DNA of 63,728 bases, the filler included, from Pseudomonadota bacterium (GTDB taxonomy: Bacteria; Pseudomonadota; Alphaproteobacteria; Paracaedibacterales; CAIOTO01), in NCBI GenBank assembly GCA_040387495.1. It is 5 parts of 4 records of this genome, joined end to end, with 100 filler letters (N's around TTAATTAATTAA, not from the genome) between each part and the next. Parts side by side here need not be neighbours in the genome. Positions count along the whole stretch, not along the records: positions 17,130 to 44,049 come from JAZKDQ010000012.1; 4 more parts are not named here. One strand, written 5' to 3'. A program made the position numbers. Each line of letters starts with the position of its first letter. Position 1 is the first letter of the stretch. Below are positions 18,001-24,000 of this stretch, piece by piece.

Positions 18001-21000
18001 TGGTCGATTGGCAATGGTTCCTTTTTTGTGGCACTCTAACAAATCATTTTATATGCTTCTTTCTGAACATGCAGACGGTCGTTTCATTGCGAAGGTTGTG
18101 AGTTACCACAATATAGAAGGCATCTATGGCTCAAAAACCCGTGGTGGTGCCCAAGCCGCACTCTCATGTGTGAAAGTACTTAAACAAGGATGCCCCATTG
18201 GCATAACGCCCGATGGTCCAAAAGGTCCAAGACATCATGTGTCGGATGGTGTGCTCCATATAGCACGTCTGAGTAACACCCCTATCCTACCTATAAGTTA
18301 TGCACTAAAAAGACATCACTTCTTAAAGACCTGGGATCGATTTTTAGTCCCCCTACCCTTCACACAAGGCGTTTTTGTAATTGGCAAACCCATCGCGCAT
18401 AAAGAAAGGAGCGACGAAGCACTAGAGGCATCGCGCATACACCTAACACAAGCGCTCCTCATTGCAGAAGCTGAAGCAGATAGACATGTGATTATAAGTA
18501 AATAAAGCTAATCTAACTTTTCTTTTTTATTTTTATCTTTGTTCTTATTTTTGTCTTTCACATGATCTACGGAAATCTCACATAACTTCTTTAATACGCG
18601 TGCAAGTCTTCCAATTTCATTGTCATTTTTAGTGAACTCCTCAAATGTTTCATTTTTGCCATTTAAATTATTTTGGATTATAGTAACAATAGTGTGAAGA
18701 GGAATCATTAAGAATACATTGTAAGTAATTACAGAAATAACGAAAACGAGTAAAATCTGCATGAGCTTGATAATAACATTTGTAGCAAATATAGATTGAT
18801 ACTGCGCATTAAGTTTATCAAAACTTTTCGAGACAACAATTGTACCAATTTTTGCACCACTAAAATCAAAAAGTGGTTCTATGGCAATCCCTTCTTCTTT
18901 ACCGTTAACAATAGGAAATACCGTATAGAATTCTGTTCCCTTACTCAGATATGTAGAAGTCATCAATGATATTATTTTTTCTTTATCTGTAGAATCTAAA
19001 TACCTAAAATTACCAATTGTATTAAGGACTTCCAGCTGTTCGTCCGTAATTTTCTTCTCATTCTTTTCCTGTTCATTTGAAATTTTTGTACAAACTCGCT
19101 TGTATGTATTTTTGTTAACAAAAATGCTAATATCTGCACCTGTAATTTTCTTTGTTTTGTTTATCAAACTTTTAAATGAAAATACAAATTCTAAACTGCC
19201 AATATGTTCTTTTTCATAAAATACGGGGACCACGCCACGAAGACCAAGCCCAGCTCTCCCTAACTCAAGGCCCTTTTGTGGACTTTTTAAGTTATTCGTA
19301 CTCACAACAGTCTGTCTAAAATCACTTAAATCTTCTCCATAATCACCATCTTTATGAAGTTTAAGAAAAGTTGATGCAGGCGCTTTATGGAATTGCATTT
19401 CACTCAGATCATATTTTTCATTTTGCTCAATAAACATTGGCCTTAATTGAGCCCATAACCACGTGCAATCTTCATCTTTAAATGCTTTTCCAATACTAGG
19501 CATAGTCGCAAGCATATCAGCGCGCGATTCAGCTTTTCCTGTTATTTTAAGAAAGTCCGATGCAATTTGTTCTGAGATAGCTTTTAACTCACTCGTCTTT
19601 GCACGTTCCAAAGCACGCTCATGATCTGAATAAACAGCAATAAGCGTAAGCACTAAAGAAATGCACGAAACCATAGGGATAAGAAGAGGAATCTTAAATC
19701 TCAAACTTCCTTTTTTAAATTTATTTACATAAACCATAAAACAACCCTCAACTTTGAGATGCAAGATAAACATCTGATTCAAATAGTTAATAATATAACG
19801 TAAATTACTTCATGGCATCAATAATGTAACCAGCCAATATAAAAATTGCAAATAGTGGCAATGCCCATTGACAATAACTAACAAGCGTTCTTAATATACT
19901 GTTTGAATAAACGGTAGTTACAATGTATTTCTCTAAAATACAGACGAAAAATAATATGGTTAATTGAAACATATAACCAATGCCAAATACTTTTAGAACC
20001 AAGCTGTCAACAACAGCGCTATCGGAATATTTTAAAGTGATCGTAAATTGCAATGTTATCAGTGCTAAAAGGGACGAAAGCACCACACTTATTTTTGCCA
20101 TAATATTTATATTGCTGACCCATAATAAAATAAGTGGAAATAGCATAATCATAAAAAATGGAAAGAAAATCATTGGCACATAAGTTGCCGAAGCACGTTC
20201 CGCCTTAACCATGAAACGTAAATTCTCATATAAATATCCATTCCAGCCTCGTAAAATTTTCATCTTTGTATGAAATCCATGTAAATACCATAAAGGAGTA
20301 CTTGCGCCAATGGTTATCCCTGAATCATATTCTTCTTCAACTTCATACACGATACGCATATCAGCCATTGTATTTTTTGTAGACTCAACATCAAGAACTA
20401 AAAGCTGCTCATCAAAAGGAAAAGCCTTTGTATCCAGCGGAGTTCCAAATTCACCTGTTATTGTTAAAATATATTCAACCTTGCCATCACTATAAATAAT
20501 GAGACCATGATGTTGTTTTTGCGGTGTTTTTAGTATATTTTTGATTTTTAAGTTTGGGTTCCAAATACTTTCTAATTTTTTGACTGCTTCTACGTCATCC
20601 AACATTATACGACTTACACCTTTTTCCTTTTTATCAAAGGCAAGATTTGGATCTTTCCATACTGTTTTCAACTGAATTATTCCGGAAAATCCCTCCAAAA
20701 GATTGCTAATGTCATCTAGTTTCAAAACCAAAAGCTCAACCTTTACAGGCACAGGAAATATAAAATCCTCCTTATTTTCAGCTTCCGATGAAAACAGTGC
20801 TGTCTGCGTTAGTAGAAACACTAAAAATAGAAAATATTTTTTAAAGCAAAACATCATTTTTAAACCCATATTCCATTACATCATCTTCAGAATTCTCAGA
20901 TGTATGCTCGTTTTCCATAGCATTATTTTCAGTGATAAAATTTTCATTAGATGTAAGCGTTGGATGCAACTGCTTTATCAGATGTGAAATAGTATCAAGT

Positions 21001-24000
21001 TGATTATGATGGTGAGCAAAATCTGACAAGGACACATTTTTACCACGCACCATCGCATTGCATCGCTTAGTCAATTCACTTAATGGATAAAGTGTTATAC
21101 CGTTAAACACGACGAAAACAATGCTGGCAAGAACAATAATTCGAACAATAGCATTAACGATTTCCCATAATATTTTTTTATAGAATTTTATATGAAGATC
21201 TTCAAATGATTTTACAACTGCAATCTTACCAATAGTCTCCCCATGAAAATCATTTAGTGGATAAAATATAATTCCAAAATGCTGTTTATTTATTACAGGA
21301 AATATAATTTCTGCGAAAGAGCTTTTCTTAAGATTTTCATTGTTAATGAATAAAAATATTTTTTCTTTATTACTTGATTCAGTATGAGTATAATCACCTA
21401 TAATATTTGATTTTGCTTCTGCTGAATTAGTGTTATCTGATTTAACGCTTATAAGTGTGCAAACCTCTTCAAAAAGCTTTGTTTCAATAAACACACCTAT
21501 CTCAGAGGATGTTAGGGATTTGTATTTGTTGATTATATTTTTCATTGTAAAGACAAATTCCATACTCCCGATGTGCCCCTCATCATCAGAAATTGGCACA
21601 ACACCACGAATTCCAAGACCAGCCCGACCAAGTTCAAGACCTTGTTGTGAACGTTTTTCCTCGTTGGCTAGAACAACACTTTTGCGAAACCCACTTAAGT
21701 CTTCACCATAACCACCTTCTTTATGAATTCTCAGAAATGTCTTAGCTGGAGCTTTATGAAATTGAAGTTCACTCATAAAATATTTTTGCTTTTGTTTCGC
21801 AAACATTACTTTCATTTGATCAATGAGCCATTCCCGATCTTCTTTTCGAAAGGCTTCAACAATAGAAGGAATAGTCGCGAACATAACCGCACGTGACGCA
21901 GCAAGTGCAGCCGTTTCATCAACATCTGTTTGTATTTTTTCTATGATATCTTTTAATGCTATACGTTTTGTTTCTACAAGTTCTTTTTCTTGCACACTGT
22001 ATGACAAAAAAACAGCACTTGCTATTGATAACATAAGGCATAAAATTACCACCAATGGTGCTCTTACAGATAGTTGAGATTTTTTAAGTCTTGCAAAAAT
22101 ATGCATATATTTTTTAAATTCATTAGCGACTCTAAGTAAGATGTTAAGCAAAAAAATATTAACAAACTATGAATGAGGAAAAAAAAGTCTATACACGAAT
22201 CAAGCCGTGATCTACGGCAAATCCCATCAGTCGATGCCGAAGCGTCACAGATGTGCGTTGCAAACATCCTTCAGAGCTTAATAAATGCTGACAAGCAGTA
22301 TCGATGTAGGTTTTCAAATTACCTTGATGCACGCGCGTAATCATACTATAAAGGCTGCTAACCTGCGAAGGAGAAACCGATAAATGTGTCATCCCAATGC
22401 CAAGCAACGCAAGCACATTAAGACGATGACTTGCTGATTCTCCGCAAATAGATAAAGGAACACGGCCACCCACACGTTCAATAATTTGTTTCAGAAAAAC
22501 AAGAAAGCTTGGTGATAAAAAATCATAACGATTACTCATTTCCGGTTTATCACGATCATATGCGAAAAAGAATTGCTGCAAATCATTCGACCCAATCGCC
22601 AAAAAATCAACAAAGGGTAATAGTTGATCAAGCTGATATACAATCGATGGAATTTCAATCATTGCGCCAACCTGAATGACAGCAGGAACATCTCTCCCTA
22701 GCATCTGCTCTCGATTGATCTCCATTTGAATAATTTTACGAATTGATAAAAATTCTGAAACTTCAGCAACCATCGGGATCATAATCGAAAGGGGTATATC
22801 ACGATAATTGCATGCAACTTTTGCTCGCAAAAAAGCACGTATCTGATGGCGAAGAAGCATTGGCCGATCCAAAGATAGTCGGATTGCACGCCATCCACTC
22901 GCCGTTGCTTGGGTGGTTGCTTTCCCCTGCTTTTGTAAAAGCAACATTTTATCACCACCAATGTCCAACGTGCGAAAACACAAAGGCTTCGCACCTGCTT
23001 GATTTAGGATATGACTATAGAACTCAGTTTGGCCGCACACACTGGGTAATTCATTCGCAATCATAAACGGTATTTCTGTACGGAAGAGCCCTACCCCATT
23101 AATGGAAGGTTGATGCACATGAACCAAGTCATCTGGTAGATTTGCATTGATTGAAAGCTTAATGTGAATTCCATCTAATGTGACTGGCGGTGGCCCATCA
23201 AGCTCTCTTTCATTAGGGTCTACCACAGAAGTCTTCAAAATTGATGCTGCACGCAACCCAATTTCTCTTATTGGACGCACATAAATTTCTCCTTTATCCC
23301 CATCAAGCACAATTGGATCGCCTGCAGTAATCATATAAAGCACAGAGTGATCACCCGCCACGACAGGAACACGAAGTGATTTCGCAATGATCTCAACATG
23401 AGAAGTATAACTACTTCCCGCTAAAATCAATCCAACCAAATTATGATGATGATAATCAATTAAATCTACTGGACTAAGCGATGATGCTACAACAATAACC
23501 GGGCTATCTGATTTGACGTGCCCAGGAATATTAGAATCCCCAGTCGACGTGTGCAAACACCCGAGAAGACGTCTACTTAAATCTTCAAACTCATACAAAC
23601 GACTTTGCCAAAATTGCTCTTTAGAAAACTGAGTTTTCATCGTATCGAGCACATCAACAATTGCTTCTTCGCACGTGCAGCCATTTTCAATGCACTGTAT
23701 AAGACGACGTTCCCACCCACGATCATGCGCCAACAAACGAAGACTAGAAAAAACATCCTTTGCGTCTTCTTTACCTTTGGAATCGCACGTAGAAATATCT
23801 GCAGCAGAAATTAGCAACTCAATTTTGCTACGCAAGCGTGTTAATGCCAAACTAAGTCGATCTGTTTCTAATAACGATACGCTAGAATTCATTTCTGAAG
23901 AAAAATGAGAAAACGCTGTTTTAAGTGCGGATTGTATCTGGTTGTTTGAGTTTGAAATAGAATTATGAAAATGTGCAAAACCTTTTCCAATCCCTCCATT

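What a model noticed while it worked through the whole genome (the two positions that open the first line are those of the whole stretch)
18508..22106. pLGIC channel gene sandwiched by two output-less dCache_3 membrane sensors (conserved three-gene module)
g01063-g01062-g01061 (minus strand; g01063 and g01062 overlap by 29 nt) encode a prokaryotic pentameric ligand-gated ion channel (Neur_chan_LBD + 4 TM) flanked by two paralogous (36% id) TM-dCache_3-TM proteins that end 55-80 aa after TM2 and carry no kinase, MCP, GGDEF or other output domain. An operon of a bacterial pLGIC with a stand-alone Cache gene was noted once (Rhodopseudomonas, Tasneem et al. 2004). New here: the pairing is the rule (61% of genomes with both families keep them within two genes), the partner is an output-less dCache_3 subfamily, it comes as two diverged paralogues bracketing the channel, and an obligate protist endosymbiont keeps the module. 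I read the Cache proteins [...]
Evidence so far: pfam.tsv: g01062 PF02931; g01061, g01063 PF14827 only; hydropathy script: 2 TM in each Cache protein, no C-terminal domain. neighbours.tsv: PF02931 and PF14827 within 2 genes in 303 of 499 genomes with both, against 0.1-0.9% for other pairs at this locus; the only such non-respiratory pair in the whole table. tblastn on fetched loci: Cache-pLGIC-Cache order in 5 of 5 loci with a >75% id channel (G003, G025, G027, MAG contigs L120, L121), Cache+pLGIC in L128 (33% id), none detected in the 5 loci with weak channel matches. Full-library HMMER: one 790-aa protein (P0041) matches both queries; Pfam: dCache_3 at 40-279 fused to Neur_chan_LBD at 463-662.
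(Added by a program. Inside this text positions count along the whole contig: they may not be those of the stretch shown here. "Call 12" and the like, gene names such as g00115 and contig names such as C1 are that model's own, and its searches are not shown. The text may have been shortened before it was handed on; [...] marks where a part breaks off. The agent that wrote the report below was given it as the finding of a first reader that could run no searches.)

Follow-up and report, generated by a model that had tools for sequence, protein, structure and literature searches.

The report
Bacterial ion channel with dedicated Cache sensors
A bacterial relative of nerve-cell ligand-gated ion channels is encoded between two copies of a membrane sensor protein that has lost its usual signalling end, and this sensor type turns up only beside such channels, which suggests that the channel is the sensor's output.

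Summary
The three minus-strand genes are real. Up is 20841-22106, the pLGIC is 19805-20869 and Down is 18508-19737. Up and the pLGIC overlap by 29 nt.

First, the Cache tails are HAMP domains rather than domain-free ends. HAMP is canonical in Down and degenerate in Up. Second, the pairing is not a rule for pLGICs in general: 6 of 11 intact assessable channel loci have an adjacent Cache gene. It is strict between two dedicated clades. An intact short dCache_3(-HAMP) gene lay next to a pLGIC in 11 of 11 assessable loci. The linked channels form one clade (support 1.0). Where the channel is gone, only Cache fragments remain (G001, G057).

The Up/Down pair is a duplication specific to this lineage. 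The paralogues are 67% identical in the distal pocket module but 11-18% in TM2 and HAMP.

My reading is that the Cache proteins are membrane-anchored ligand-binding co-receptors of the channel, coupled in the periplasm or membrane. One lineage's partner has no HAMP, and the channel has almost no cytoplasmic loop. Binding is not shown. The idea was anticipated by Tasneem et al. 2004, so this is a new variant of a known kind. Interest 0.6.

The parts
20841..22106 (-). Up: TM-dCache_3-TM protein with a degenerate HAMP-like tail and an acidic C-terminal tail (421 aa from ATG 22106; the longest ORF reaches 22151)
   Evidence: ORF. Pfam dCache_3 8e-25. Start by orthologue alignment. Orthologues are 58-78% identical.
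22002..22076 (-). Up TM1 (residues 11-35)
   Evidence: Hydropathy. Coordinates checked.
21204..21989 (-). Up periplasmic double-Cache domain (residues 40-301)
   Evidence: Pfam. Alignment to the modelled paralogue. The distal core is 67% identical to Down.
21093..21170 (-). Up TM2 (residues 313-338)
   Evidence: Hydropathy. Coordinates checked.
20937..21092 (-). Up HAMP-like segment (residues 339-390). The P-L and Gly of helix 1 are kept. The helix-2 motif is degenerate (NQLDTIS where Down has NEIGRLA).
   Evidence: Alignment. Family profile vs Af1503 HAMP. Not detected by Pfam on the tail alone.
20844..20936 (-). Up acidic C-terminal tail (residues 391-421). Its last 29 nt overlap the channel gene's start.
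19805..20869 (-). Pentameric ligand-gated ion channel (pLGIC) subunit, 354 aa
   Evidence: Pfam Neur_chan_LBD 2.4e-15. 175 PDB sequences at E<=1e-3, among them GABA-A, GlyR and GLIC. AF2 pLDDT 82.5. Foldseek to GLIC, TM-score 0.80-0.82 by target.
20786..20869 (-). Channel signal-peptide-like N-terminus (residues 1-28)
20405..20422 (-). Pro-loop motif FPFDEQ (residues 150-155)
   Evidence: Invariant P151, F152 and D153 in 25 pLGICs. Coordinates checked.
20237..20248 (-). GWNG motif at the tip of the beta9-beta10 hairpin (loop C), specific to Cache-linked channels
   Evidence: W209 and N210 are present in >=90% of 20 clade members and in 0 of 8 other pLGICs. The hairpin lies between strands 194-207 and 213-225.
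20030..20104 (-). Pore helix M2 (residues 256-280). By alignment to GlyR: -2' Met, -1' Ala, 0' Lys, 9' Leu. No acidic residue at -1'.
18508..19737 (-). Down: TM-dCache_3-TM-HAMP protein (409 aa from ATG 19737; the longest ORF reaches 19782)
   Evidence: ORF. Pfam dCache_3 6e-29. AF2 pLDDT 93.3. Foldseek to dCache ligand-binding domains. Orthologues are 62-83% identical.
18820..19620 (-). Down periplasmic double-Cache domain (residues 40-306). The distal module carries the family's conserved residues D136, R141, G156 and E183.
18709..18786 (-). Down TM2 (residues 318-343)
18553..18708 (-). Down HAMP domain (residues 344-395): P-L, Gly, connector, NEIGRLA
   Evidence: Family profile vs Af1503 HAMP, E 1.6e-7. 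Pfam HAMP above cut-off in 5 short relatives. Helix-connector-helix in the model. Not detected by Pfam on this tail alone or in the genome scan.

Best explanation
The three genes encode one sensory unit. It consists of a pentameric ligand-gated ion channel and two paralogous, membrane-anchored ligand-binding co-receptors (TM-dCache_3-TM-HAMP). These co-receptors descend from a chemoreceptor-like ancestor that lost its signalling domain.

Shown here:
- The architectures of the three proteins.
- The HAMP identity of the Cache tails at family level.
- Strict adjacency of this Cache subfamily to one pLGIC clade.
- Decay of the Cache genes where the channel is lost.
- Purifying selection on all three genes.
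- A lineage-specific duplication that produced Up and Down.

Inferred:
- A small periplasmic ligand binds the membrane-distal Cache pocket. Up and Down keep nearly the same pocket.
- Occupancy is passed to the channel by contact in the periplasm or within the membrane, and not through a cytoplasmic enzyme.
- The channel turns this into an ion flux or a change in membrane potential.
- Up and Down probably form a heterodimer with asymmetric TM2/HAMP parts.

The ligand, the ion and the physiological role are unknown. The pore lacks the acidic -1' residue that other linked channels carry, so this clade may differ from them in charge selectivity.
For: Anatomy.

HAMP: a profile of 52 short family members matches the Af1503 HAMP at E 1.6e-7 over profile positions 320-370. 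Five short relatives score 31-48 bits on Pfam HAMP, above the 25-bit cut-off.

No other output: 59 of the 83 best library representatives are <=420 aa, and none of these 59 shows any Pfam family other than Cache or HAMP.

Adjacency from the Cache side: an intact short Cache gene lies next to a pLGIC gene in 11 of 11 assessable loci. These are G000, G003/L002, L001, G044, G051, L032, G048, G102, G280, G492 and L035. Two more loci (L033, L034) end right after the Cache gene.

In three genome samples, every strong full-length match with a short reading frame was one of these loci. All other strong matches had frames of >=580 aa or were cut by a contig end. The samples were 401 genomes of the phylum, 61 of the order and 401 of the class.

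Co-loss: G001 keeps only Down residues 96-393 between PtsI and DUF374. G057 keeps only about 75 codons of Down, with stops.

Two matching clades: the short Caches form a clade of 58 tips with 0 of 31 long forms inside (support 0.71; its two sub-clades 0.98 and 1.0). The linked channels form a clade with 0 of 6 unlinked channels inside (support 1.0).

Selection (dN/dS): channel 0.025-0.039, Down 0.084-0.125, Up 0.126-0.177.

Coupling outside the cytoplasm:
- G280's partner ends 6 residues after TM2 and has no HAMP.
- The channel's M3-M4 link is about 3 residues long.
- A clade-specific GWNG motif sits on the exposed loop-C tip.

Same ligand, different transmission parts: Up and Down are 67% identical in the distal core (51/76) but 11% in TM2 (4/37) and 18% in HAMP (9/50).

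Fusions: P0033 joins Cache-HAMP, a hydrophobic segment and a pLGIC. P0015 is two Cache units in tandem.

The genome has no MCP signalling domain and no CheA dimerisation domain.

Precedent: an output-less Cache-HAMP receptor binds an operon-encoded partner (bioRxiv 10.64898/2026.05.25.727664; abstract and passages read).
Against: - There is no direct evidence of contact between the Cache proteins and the channel.
- Sample sizes are small and not independent. Six of the 11 loci belong to one three-gene clade, leaving about six lineages.
- The short-Cache clade has only moderate support (0.71) and the tree is midpoint-rooted. Four short proteins (P0040, P0058, P0060, P0062) fall outside it with the MCP forms, and their gene context is unknown.
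- The gene context of roughly 45 further short library representatives could not be seen, because that library carries no context.
- The HAMP is well conserved in many members. That implies a cytoplasmic role which a purely periplasmic or membrane coupling model does not explain.
- On the window's own proteins, HAMP is not significant. Pfam finds nothing on the tails, and the close-clade profile hits Af1503 only at E 0.61.
- A 5-fold channel and a 2-fold Cache dimer do not match in symmetry.
- The single Cache-pLGIC fusion could be a frameshift or gene-call artefact, since the two genes often overlap.
Confidence: 0.5

Rival explanations
1. The Cache-HAMP proteins signal in trans through their HAMP domains to a cytoplasmic partner, for example one of the genome's histidine kinases. 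This is how the Cache_heme-HAMP receptor signals to its Ser/Thr kinase. The channel is a separate, merely co-regulated part of the same response.
For: HAMP motifs are kept in Down and in many family members. There is an experimental precedent for HAMP-mediated partner binding. The genome has 14 HATPase_c matches, several of them in frames of about 650-680 aa.
Against: No kinase gene travels with the module. The flanking genes differ between lineages, and only the channel is constant. G280's partner has no HAMP at all. Up's and G102's HAMP motifs are degenerate. The Cache genes decay where the channel is lost.
Confidence: 0.17
2. The Cache proteins are ligand-capturing or ligand-presenting receptors. 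They concentrate a ligand or hand it over to the channel's own orthosteric site, as a periplasmic binding protein would. They do not gate the channel allosterically. This is the proposal of Tasneem et al. 2004.
For: Other pLGIC clades sit next to periplasmic binding proteins. In G074 a Phosphonate-bd gene lies 30 nt downstream of the channel gene on the same strand. Tasneem et al. describe PBP-II operons. The channel keeps a conserved loop C carrying Trp.
Against: Loop B of this channel has no aromatic residue (ESTKNT where GlyR has ESFGYT; alignment). A membrane-tethered dimer with TM2 and HAMP is more apparatus than ligand capture needs. The sequence data cannot separate this model from the best explanation.
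Confidence: 0.18
3. The Cache proteins are structural, assembly or trafficking subunits of the channel and no longer sense a ligand.
For: Auxiliary membrane subunits of eukaryotic pLGICs exist, for example a GABA-A receptor solved with GARLH4 (title listed). In L002 the Up copy has lost several conserved pocket residues.
Against: The distal pocket module is the best-conserved part of both paralogues (67% against 11-37% in the other regions outside a 48% helical stretch). It also carries the family's nearly invariant D136, R141 and E183.
Confidence: 0.08
4. The gene neighbourhood has no functional meaning and reflects hitch-hiking on a mobile cassette.
For: The distribution is patchy, with 5 of 61 genomes of the order carrying an intact module. 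Channels are 75-77% identical across different families of the order. A 91% identical copy sits on a 3.5-kb contig of a 5.2-Mb MAG labelled Bacteroidota.
Against: The pairing persists while the channels diverge to 22-31% identity. It spans about six lineages with unrelated flanking genes. The genes often overlap, and all three are under purifying selection.
Confidence: 0.03

Closest known systems
Prokaryotic ART-LGIC/Cache associations of Tasneem, Iyer, Jakobsson & Aravind 2004 (PMC549065; abstract and Cache/operon passages read)
   Same: A bacterial pLGIC functionally linked to a Cache sensor domain. The paper reports N-terminal MCP-N+Cache fusions and one Rhodopseudomonas operon with a stand-alone Cache gene, and predicts cooperation between them. 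The HAMP-less partner in G280 (an alphaproteobacterium of about 5 Mb) may be of that type.
   Different: Here the partner is a dedicated monophyletic subfamily (TM-dCache_3-TM, usually with HAMP). It is paired with a dedicated channel clade. It was strictly adjacent in every locus I could assess, and it decays together with the channel. In one lineage it is duplicated to bracket the channel. None of this is in the passages I read.
Cache_heme-HAMP (CHH) receptor with its operon Ser/Thr kinase (bioRxiv 10.64898/2026.05.25.727664; abstract and passages read)
   Same: A periplasmic Cache domain, TM helices and a HAMP that is not coupled to any output in the same chain. The output is a separately encoded, genetically linked protein.
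   Different: Here the partner is an ion channel with almost no cytoplasmic surface, not a soluble kinase that grips the HAMP. There is no heme CXXCH motif (sequences). One lineage lacks HAMP altogether.
Af1503 of Archaeoglobus fulgidus (HAMP structures 2y0q, 2l7h and others)
   Same: It is the best solved-structure match to the family's tail. From recall, Af1503 is itself a TM receptor that ends in a HAMP without an output domain.
   Different: The output-less nature of Af1503 is recalled, not tested here. I know of no link between Af1503 and a pLGIC.
DeCLIC and other pLGICs with extra N-terminal periplasmic domains (abstracts seen in the listing)
   Same: An accessory periplasmic domain that modulates a bacterial pLGIC.
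   Different: In DeCLIC the accessory domain is part of the channel chain, five per channel, and is not a Cache domain. Here it is a separate, dimer-type membrane protein.
Alpha2-delta subunit of voltage-gated calcium channels, and auxiliary subunits of eukaryotic pLGICs such as GARLH4 with the GABA-A receptor (entry title)
   Same: A separately encoded extracellular or TM accessory subunit of an ion channel. Alpha2-delta carries Cache domains (Tasneem passages).
   Different: The channel class differs (Cav), the Cache type differs (dCache_1), and there is no homology-based link. This is analogy only.

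Membership tests
Pentameric ligand-gated ion channel (Pro-loop/Cys-loop superfamily) | Extracellular beta-sandwich ligand-binding domain (Pfam Neur_chan_LBD) | tested here: met
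   57 bits against a cut-off of 26. The model has beta strands over residues 40-225. Foldseek to GLIC gives a TM-score of 0.80-0.82 by target.
Pentameric ligand-gated ion channel (Pro-loop/Cys-loop superfamily) | Conserved Pro-loop (FPxD), pre-M1 Arg and M1 Pro | tested here: met
   FPFDEQ at residues 150-155. P151, F152, D153, R225 and P237 are invariant in 25 aligned pLGICs.
Pentameric ligand-gated ion channel (Pro-loop/Cys-loop superfamily) | Four transmembrane helices M1-M4 after the ligand-binding domain | tested here: met
   Helices at 227-249, 256-280, 290-318 and 322-353.
Pentameric ligand-gated ion channel (Pro-loop/Cys-loop superfamily) | Pentameric assembly and ligand-gated conductance | not testable with these tools
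   Needs biochemistry and electrophysiology.
NCBIfam LIC (TIGR00860) / LGIC_1 (NF033918) subfamilies | Score above the curated cut-off | tested here: not met
   84.8 bits against 280.2, and 44.5 bits against 500. The protein belongs to the superfamily but to neither of these curated subfamilies.
dCache_3 double Cache sensor | Pfam PF14827 above its cut-off | tested here: met
   101.8 and 88.2 bits against a cut-off of 25.7.
dCache_3 double Cache sensor | A long N-terminal helix plus two PAS-like modules, between two TM helices | tested here: met
   AF2 pLDDT 93.3 with helix 12-77, two alpha/beta modules and helix 307-358. Foldseek hits to Mlp24, Tlp3, PctA, vpHK1S-Z8 and DctB sensor domains.
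HAMP domain | Significant match to a HAMP model or a solved HAMP structure | tested here: inconclusive
   Met at family level: the A2 profile hits the Af1503 HAMP at E 1.6e-7, and 5 short relatives exceed Pfam's cut-off. Not met for the window's own proteins: Pfam on the tails finds nothing, the genome scan finds HAMP only in two kinases, and the close-clade profile gives E 0.61.
HAMP domain | Helix-connector-helix directly after TM2, with P-L, Gly and the DExGxLA motif | tested here: met
   Down has PL...G...NEIGRLA and a helix-break-helix at residues 344-408. Up keeps PL and Gly, but its second motif is degenerate.
Methyl-accepting chemotaxis protein | MCPsignal domain | tested here: not met
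   Absent from both proteins and from the whole genome. The nearest relatives that do carry an output are MCPs: 20 of the 24 long proteins.
Sensor histidine kinase | HisKA and HATPase_c domains | tested here: not met
   No such family was found in either protein.
CHH (Cache_heme-HAMP) receptor with Ser/Thr kinase partner | Heme c CXXCH insertion, and a linked PknB-like kinase | tested here: not met
   Neither protein has CXXCH (sequences). The neighbours are a pLGIC, PtsI and DUF374. Only the general plan, Cache-TM-HAMP without an output, is shared.

The most novel reading that the evidence does not exclude
A two-part ionotropic chemoreceptor. An MCP-derived Cache(-HAMP) dimer forms a stable complex with a pentameric ligand-gated channel and gates it. 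This would be the first auxiliary sensing subunit of a prokaryotic pLGIC. In bacteria that have lost classical chemoreceptors, the pair would act as a direct chemical-to-electrical sensor. None of the 5 module-bearing genomes of the order has an MCP signalling domain, and within the genus the module and MCPs are found in different species.
Probability: 0.3. Interest if true: 0.8.

Novelty: new variant of a known kind. Interest (0 to 1): 0.6.

Why it matters
As far as I know (recalled, not searched), the physiological roles and native ligands of bacterial pLGICs such as GLIC and ELIC remain poorly known. A dedicated, co-evolving sensor partner gives a concrete handle on that question. One can express the channel with and without its Cache partners and screen ligands on a soluble Cache domain.

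The finding also adds an ion channel to the very short list of outputs for Cache-HAMP receptors that lack their own output domain. If binding is confirmed, it would show that auxiliary sensing subunits of Cys-loop-type channels are not a eukaryotic invention.

Tried and rejected
- **Complex prediction.** I submitted channel residues 28-354 with Down residues 1-355, each with its alignment. The result was no verdict (score 0.00, controls not run). It is evidence neither way.
- **Expression.** No RNA holder is listed for the locus. All 5 runs listed are DNA metagenomes, and I did not lay reads.
- **Pfam on the two tails alone.** No HAMP was found, only noise.
- **Close-clade profile against the PDB.** Nothing significant.
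- **Metagenome scan with the broad Cache alignments A2 and A3.** The narrow alignment A1 returned only 12 loci.
- **Plasmid collection.** No pLGIC relative was found. The one Cache hit is a 679-aa frame, so a long form.
- **Promoter and terminator scan.** Not above shuffled expectation for promoters (22 found against 17.7 expected). Uninformative.
- **Link to flagellar motility.** FliG_C is present in G000, G003 and G048 but was not found in G044 or G051. Control of motility therefore cannot be the module's general role.
- **A 300-genome sample of the phylum of the MAG that holds L001.** No short Cache other than on L001's own contig.
- **Literature.** Searches for pLGIC with Cache, dCache, operon or the Pfam names found only Tasneem 2004 on the association. 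Subscription journals are not covered by that library.

Full report
**1. Observation**

The window holds three consecutive minus-strand ORFs: 18508-19782 (424 aa), 19805-20869 (354 aa) and 20841-22151 (436 aa). The last two overlap by 29 nt. Alignment with orthologues puts the likely starts at ATG 22106 for the upstream Cache gene ('Up', 421 aa) and ATG 19737 for the downstream one ('Down', 409 aa, with GAGGG 7 nt upstream).

Pfam gives dCache_3 for both outer proteins (6e-29 and 8e-25) and Neur_chan_LBD for the middle one (2.4e-15). All are above the curated cut-offs, and no kinase, MCP or GGDEF family appears. The paralogues are 38% identical (149/395, E 5e-93).

Hydropathy shows two TM segments in each Cache protein. 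The channel has a signal-like segment plus four TM segments.

The window from position 17130 onward is contig C12 of a 1.66-Mb, 20-contig genome that is 99.9% complete. These are that genome's only two dCache_3 matches and its only Neur_chan_LBD match. The flanking genes are a PtsI-like gene upstream on the same strand and a convergent DUF374 gene.

**2. The channel**

The middle protein matches 175 PDB sequences at E<=1e-3, among them GABA-A beta, GlyR alpha3 and GLIC. An AF2 model (pLDDT 82.5) has the beta-sandwich followed by four helices. The M3-M4 link is only about 3 residues. Foldseek ranks GLIC first, with a TM-score of 0.80-0.82 by target. The Pro-loop FPFDEQ, the pre-M1 Arg and the M1 Pro are all present.

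By the GlyR alignment, the pore reads -2' Met, -1' Ala, 0' Lys and 9' Leu. Other Cache-linked channels carry Glu or Asp at -1', but this clade does not. Charge selectivity may therefore differ. This is inference only.

**3. The Cache proteins and their tails**

AF2 models Down with pLDDT 93.3. The model has a long N-terminal helix, two PAS-like modules, and a helix running through TM2 into a helix-connector-helix. Foldseek finds double-Cache sensor domains: Mlp24, Tlp3, PctA, vpHK1S-Z8 and DctB.

The tail after TM2 reads P-L ... G ... NEIGRLA in Down, which is the HAMP pattern. Pfam does not call HAMP on the two tails alone or in the genome scan. A profile of the close clade reaches the Af1503 HAMP only at E 0.61. 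A profile of 52 short family members, however, matches the Af1503 HAMP structures at E 1.6e-7 at exactly this position. Five short relatives also score 31-48 bits on Pfam HAMP, against a cut-off of 25.

So the proteins lack an output domain but are not domain-free. They are TM-dCache_3-TM-HAMP. The HAMP is canonical in Down and degenerate in Up, which reads NQLDTIS and adds an acidic tail.

**4. A distinct subfamily**

An exhaustive profile search of 1.84 billion representatives gave 7311 hits at E<=1e-3. The top of the list is dominated by proteins of 370-400 aa that cover the whole profile.

Of the 83 best hits, 59 are <=420 aa. None of these 59 shows any Pfam family other than Cache or HAMP. 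Of the 24 longer hits, 20 are MCPs and one carries GAF. One is a tandem of two Cache units (P0015). One joins a 4HB_MCP sensor to a Cache unit (P0020). One is the Cache + Neur_chan_LBD fusion (P0033).

In a FastTree of 93 sequences, every pLGIC-linked Cache falls in one clade of 58 tips. That clade contains 0 of the 31 long forms. Its support is 0.71, and its two sub-clades have 0.98 and 1.0. Four short proteins fall outside it with the MCPs. The tree is midpoint-rooted, so monophyly is provisional.

**5. Linkage**

From the Cache side, an intact short Cache gene lies beside a pLGIC gene in 11 of 11 assessable loci.
- Three-gene form: G000, G003/L002, L001, G044, G051 and L032.
- Two-gene form, with the Cache gene upstream: G048, G102 (Magnetococcales by a source name), G280, G492 and L035.
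- L033 and L034 end just after the Cache gene and cannot be assessed.

I scanned whole genomes with the family profile in three samples: 401 genomes of the phylum, 61 of the order and 401 of the class. The only strong full-length matches with short frames were these same loci. Every other strong match had a frame of >=580 aa or ran off a contig. A 300-genome sample of another phylum held none apart from L001's own contig.

From the channel side the pairing is not general. Outside G000 I saw 14 pLGIC loci. Six have an adjacent Cache gene and five intact ones do not (G019, G434 twice, G074, G096). One is cut upstream (G262) and two are broken (G047, G113). G074's channel sits next to a Phosphonate-bd periplasmic binding protein, which recalls the PBP operons of Tasneem et al.

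Among genomes of the phylum sample that hold both families, 3 of 5 have them adjacent.

The linked channels form their own clade: 11 linked tips, 0 of 6 unlinked tips inside, support 1.0. They share a GWNG motif at the loop-C tip that is absent from the 8 other pLGICs compared.

**6. Loss and selection**

In the same genus, G001 keeps only Down residues 96-393 (83% identical) between the end of PtsI and DUF374. Up, the channel and the 5' end of Down are gone. In G057 the flank is syntenic with G051, but only about 75 codons of Down remain, with stops.

Intact modules occur in 5 of 61 genomes of the order.

dN/dS is 0.025-0.039 for the channel, 0.084-0.125 for Down and 0.126-0.177 for Up. dS is near or above 1 in several of these pairs, so the values are rough.

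**7. The duplication**

Up and Down are sister groups (support 0.975). Each is monophyletic (0.999 and 1.0), and both lie inside the two-gene forms. The bracketed arrangement is therefore specific to one lineage.

Identity between Up and Down by region:

| Region | Identity |
|---|---|
| Distal PAS core | 67% (51/76) |
| Helices 78-110 | 48% |
| Proximal part | 37% |
| N-helix and TM1 | 31% |
| HAMP | 18% (9/50) |
| TM2 | 11% (4/37) |

The paralogues keep the same pocket and have specialised their transmission parts. The natural tandem P0015, with four TM segments and its two halves in different sub-clades, hints that two different Cache units can work as a pair.

**8. Mechanism**

I infer that the Cache proteins are ligand-binding co-receptors dedicated to the channel. 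Three observations place the coupling in the periplasm or membrane rather than the cytoplasm.
- G280's partner ends 6 residues after TM2.
- The channel has almost no cytoplasmic loop.
- The clade-specific motif lies on the exposed loop C.

What the conserved HAMP does remains unexplained. It may only hold the dimer in register.

The fusion P0033 has a hydrophobic, signal-peptide-like segment between the HAMP and the channel domain, so its topology is workable. Because the two genes often overlap, however, a frameshift artefact cannot be excluded.

The genome has no MCPsignal domain and no CheA dimerisation domain. It has only a weak CheW-like match interrupted by a stop. It does have FlhA and FliG, and 4 ATP/ADP-translocase matches, which fit an intracellular lifestyle.

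None of the 5 module-bearing genomes of the order has an MCP domain, against 17 of the other 56. Only 3 of the 5 have FliG, so control of motility cannot be the module's general role.

**9. Comparison with what is known**

Tasneem et al. 2004 reported Cache/MCP-N fusions and one operon with a stand-alone Cache gene, and proposed cooperation (passages read). A 2026 preprint shows that an output-less Cache_heme-HAMP receptor binds an operon-encoded kinase through its HAMP.

What is new here:
- The dedicated Cache and channel clades.
- Their strict adjacency and their joint decay.
- The HAMP tail and its variable loss.
- The lineage-specific bracketing duplication.

My searches found nothing else on the association. 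Subscription journals are not covered by that library.

**10. Verdict**

This is a new variant of a known kind. Binding is unproven, and the one complex prediction gave no verdict (listed under Tried and rejected only).

Noticed in passing
window 1-17129 versus 17130-44049: The window is not one piece of DNA. Positions 17130-44049 are contig C12 of the genome, and the rest lies off that contig or is N. GC drops from about 0.43 to 0.35 near 16-18 kb.
   Followed up: partly
L045 (G001:C125) 1822-2715: A species of the same genus keeps only a 5'-truncated Down gene (residues 96-393, 83% identical) between the end of PtsI and DUF374. Up and the channel are deleted.
   Followed up: yes
L054 (G057:C18) 4920-5162: A remnant of the last ~75 codons of Down, with stop codons. 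The flank next to it is syntenic with G051 at 87% DNA identity over 3.1 kb. The rest of the module is gone.
   Followed up: yes
L001 (G830:C81, 3567 bases): A 3.5-kb contig carries the whole module at 78-91% protein identity to the window. It sits in a 5.2-Mb MAG labelled Bacteroidota. No other short Cache was found in 300 genomes of that phylum. It is probably a mis-binned contig.
   Followed up: partly
L002 1239-4241 (-): In the G003-type locus, a 1000-aa ORF on the opposite strand lies between PtsI and Up. It is absent from the window. I did not characterise it.
   Followed up: no
L002 4770-6026 (Up copy): This Up orthologue has lost several otherwise conserved distal-pocket residues (for example FHKAPA to FYSEEA, and GEDLS to GEISS with a 2-residue gap). 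Its last ~90 residues are identical to those of L001. This suggests relaxed selection, recombination or a chimeric assembly.
   Followed up: no
L026 (G280:C18) 4437-5402: The partner Cache of this alphaproteobacterial channel ends 6 residues after TM2 and has no HAMP. It is possibly the type seen in Rhodopseudomonas by Tasneem et al.
   Followed up: partly
L028 (G074:C20) 4117-6513: A pLGIC with a ~185-aa N-terminal extension (495 aa in all). It lies directly upstream of a Phosphonate-bd periplasmic binding protein and a hybrid histidine kinase, with no Cache gene.
   Followed up: no
P0015, P0020 (library proteins): P0015 is a natural tandem of two Cache units with four TM segments. P0020 has two 4HB_MCP-like sensor units followed by a short Cache unit.
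   Followed up: partly
G000 genome: C8:53033-56164, C14:94182-99439, C3:61097-61501, C13:96758-101861, C10:44229-48734: Four ATP/ADP-translocase matches, one with an internal TAA. A weak CheW-like match interrupted by a stop. Intact FlhA and FliG. Three histidine-kinase-type ATPase matches in a row on C10.
   Followed up: no
genus g1 (G000-G006): The distribution is complementary. G004 and G005 each show 4 MCPsignal matches and no module. G000 and G003 have the module and no MCP. The sample is too small to test.
   Followed up: partly
window 32001-36000: GC rises to 0.48-0.49 within a region of about 0.37. This may be an rRNA operon. I did not examine it.
   Followed up: no
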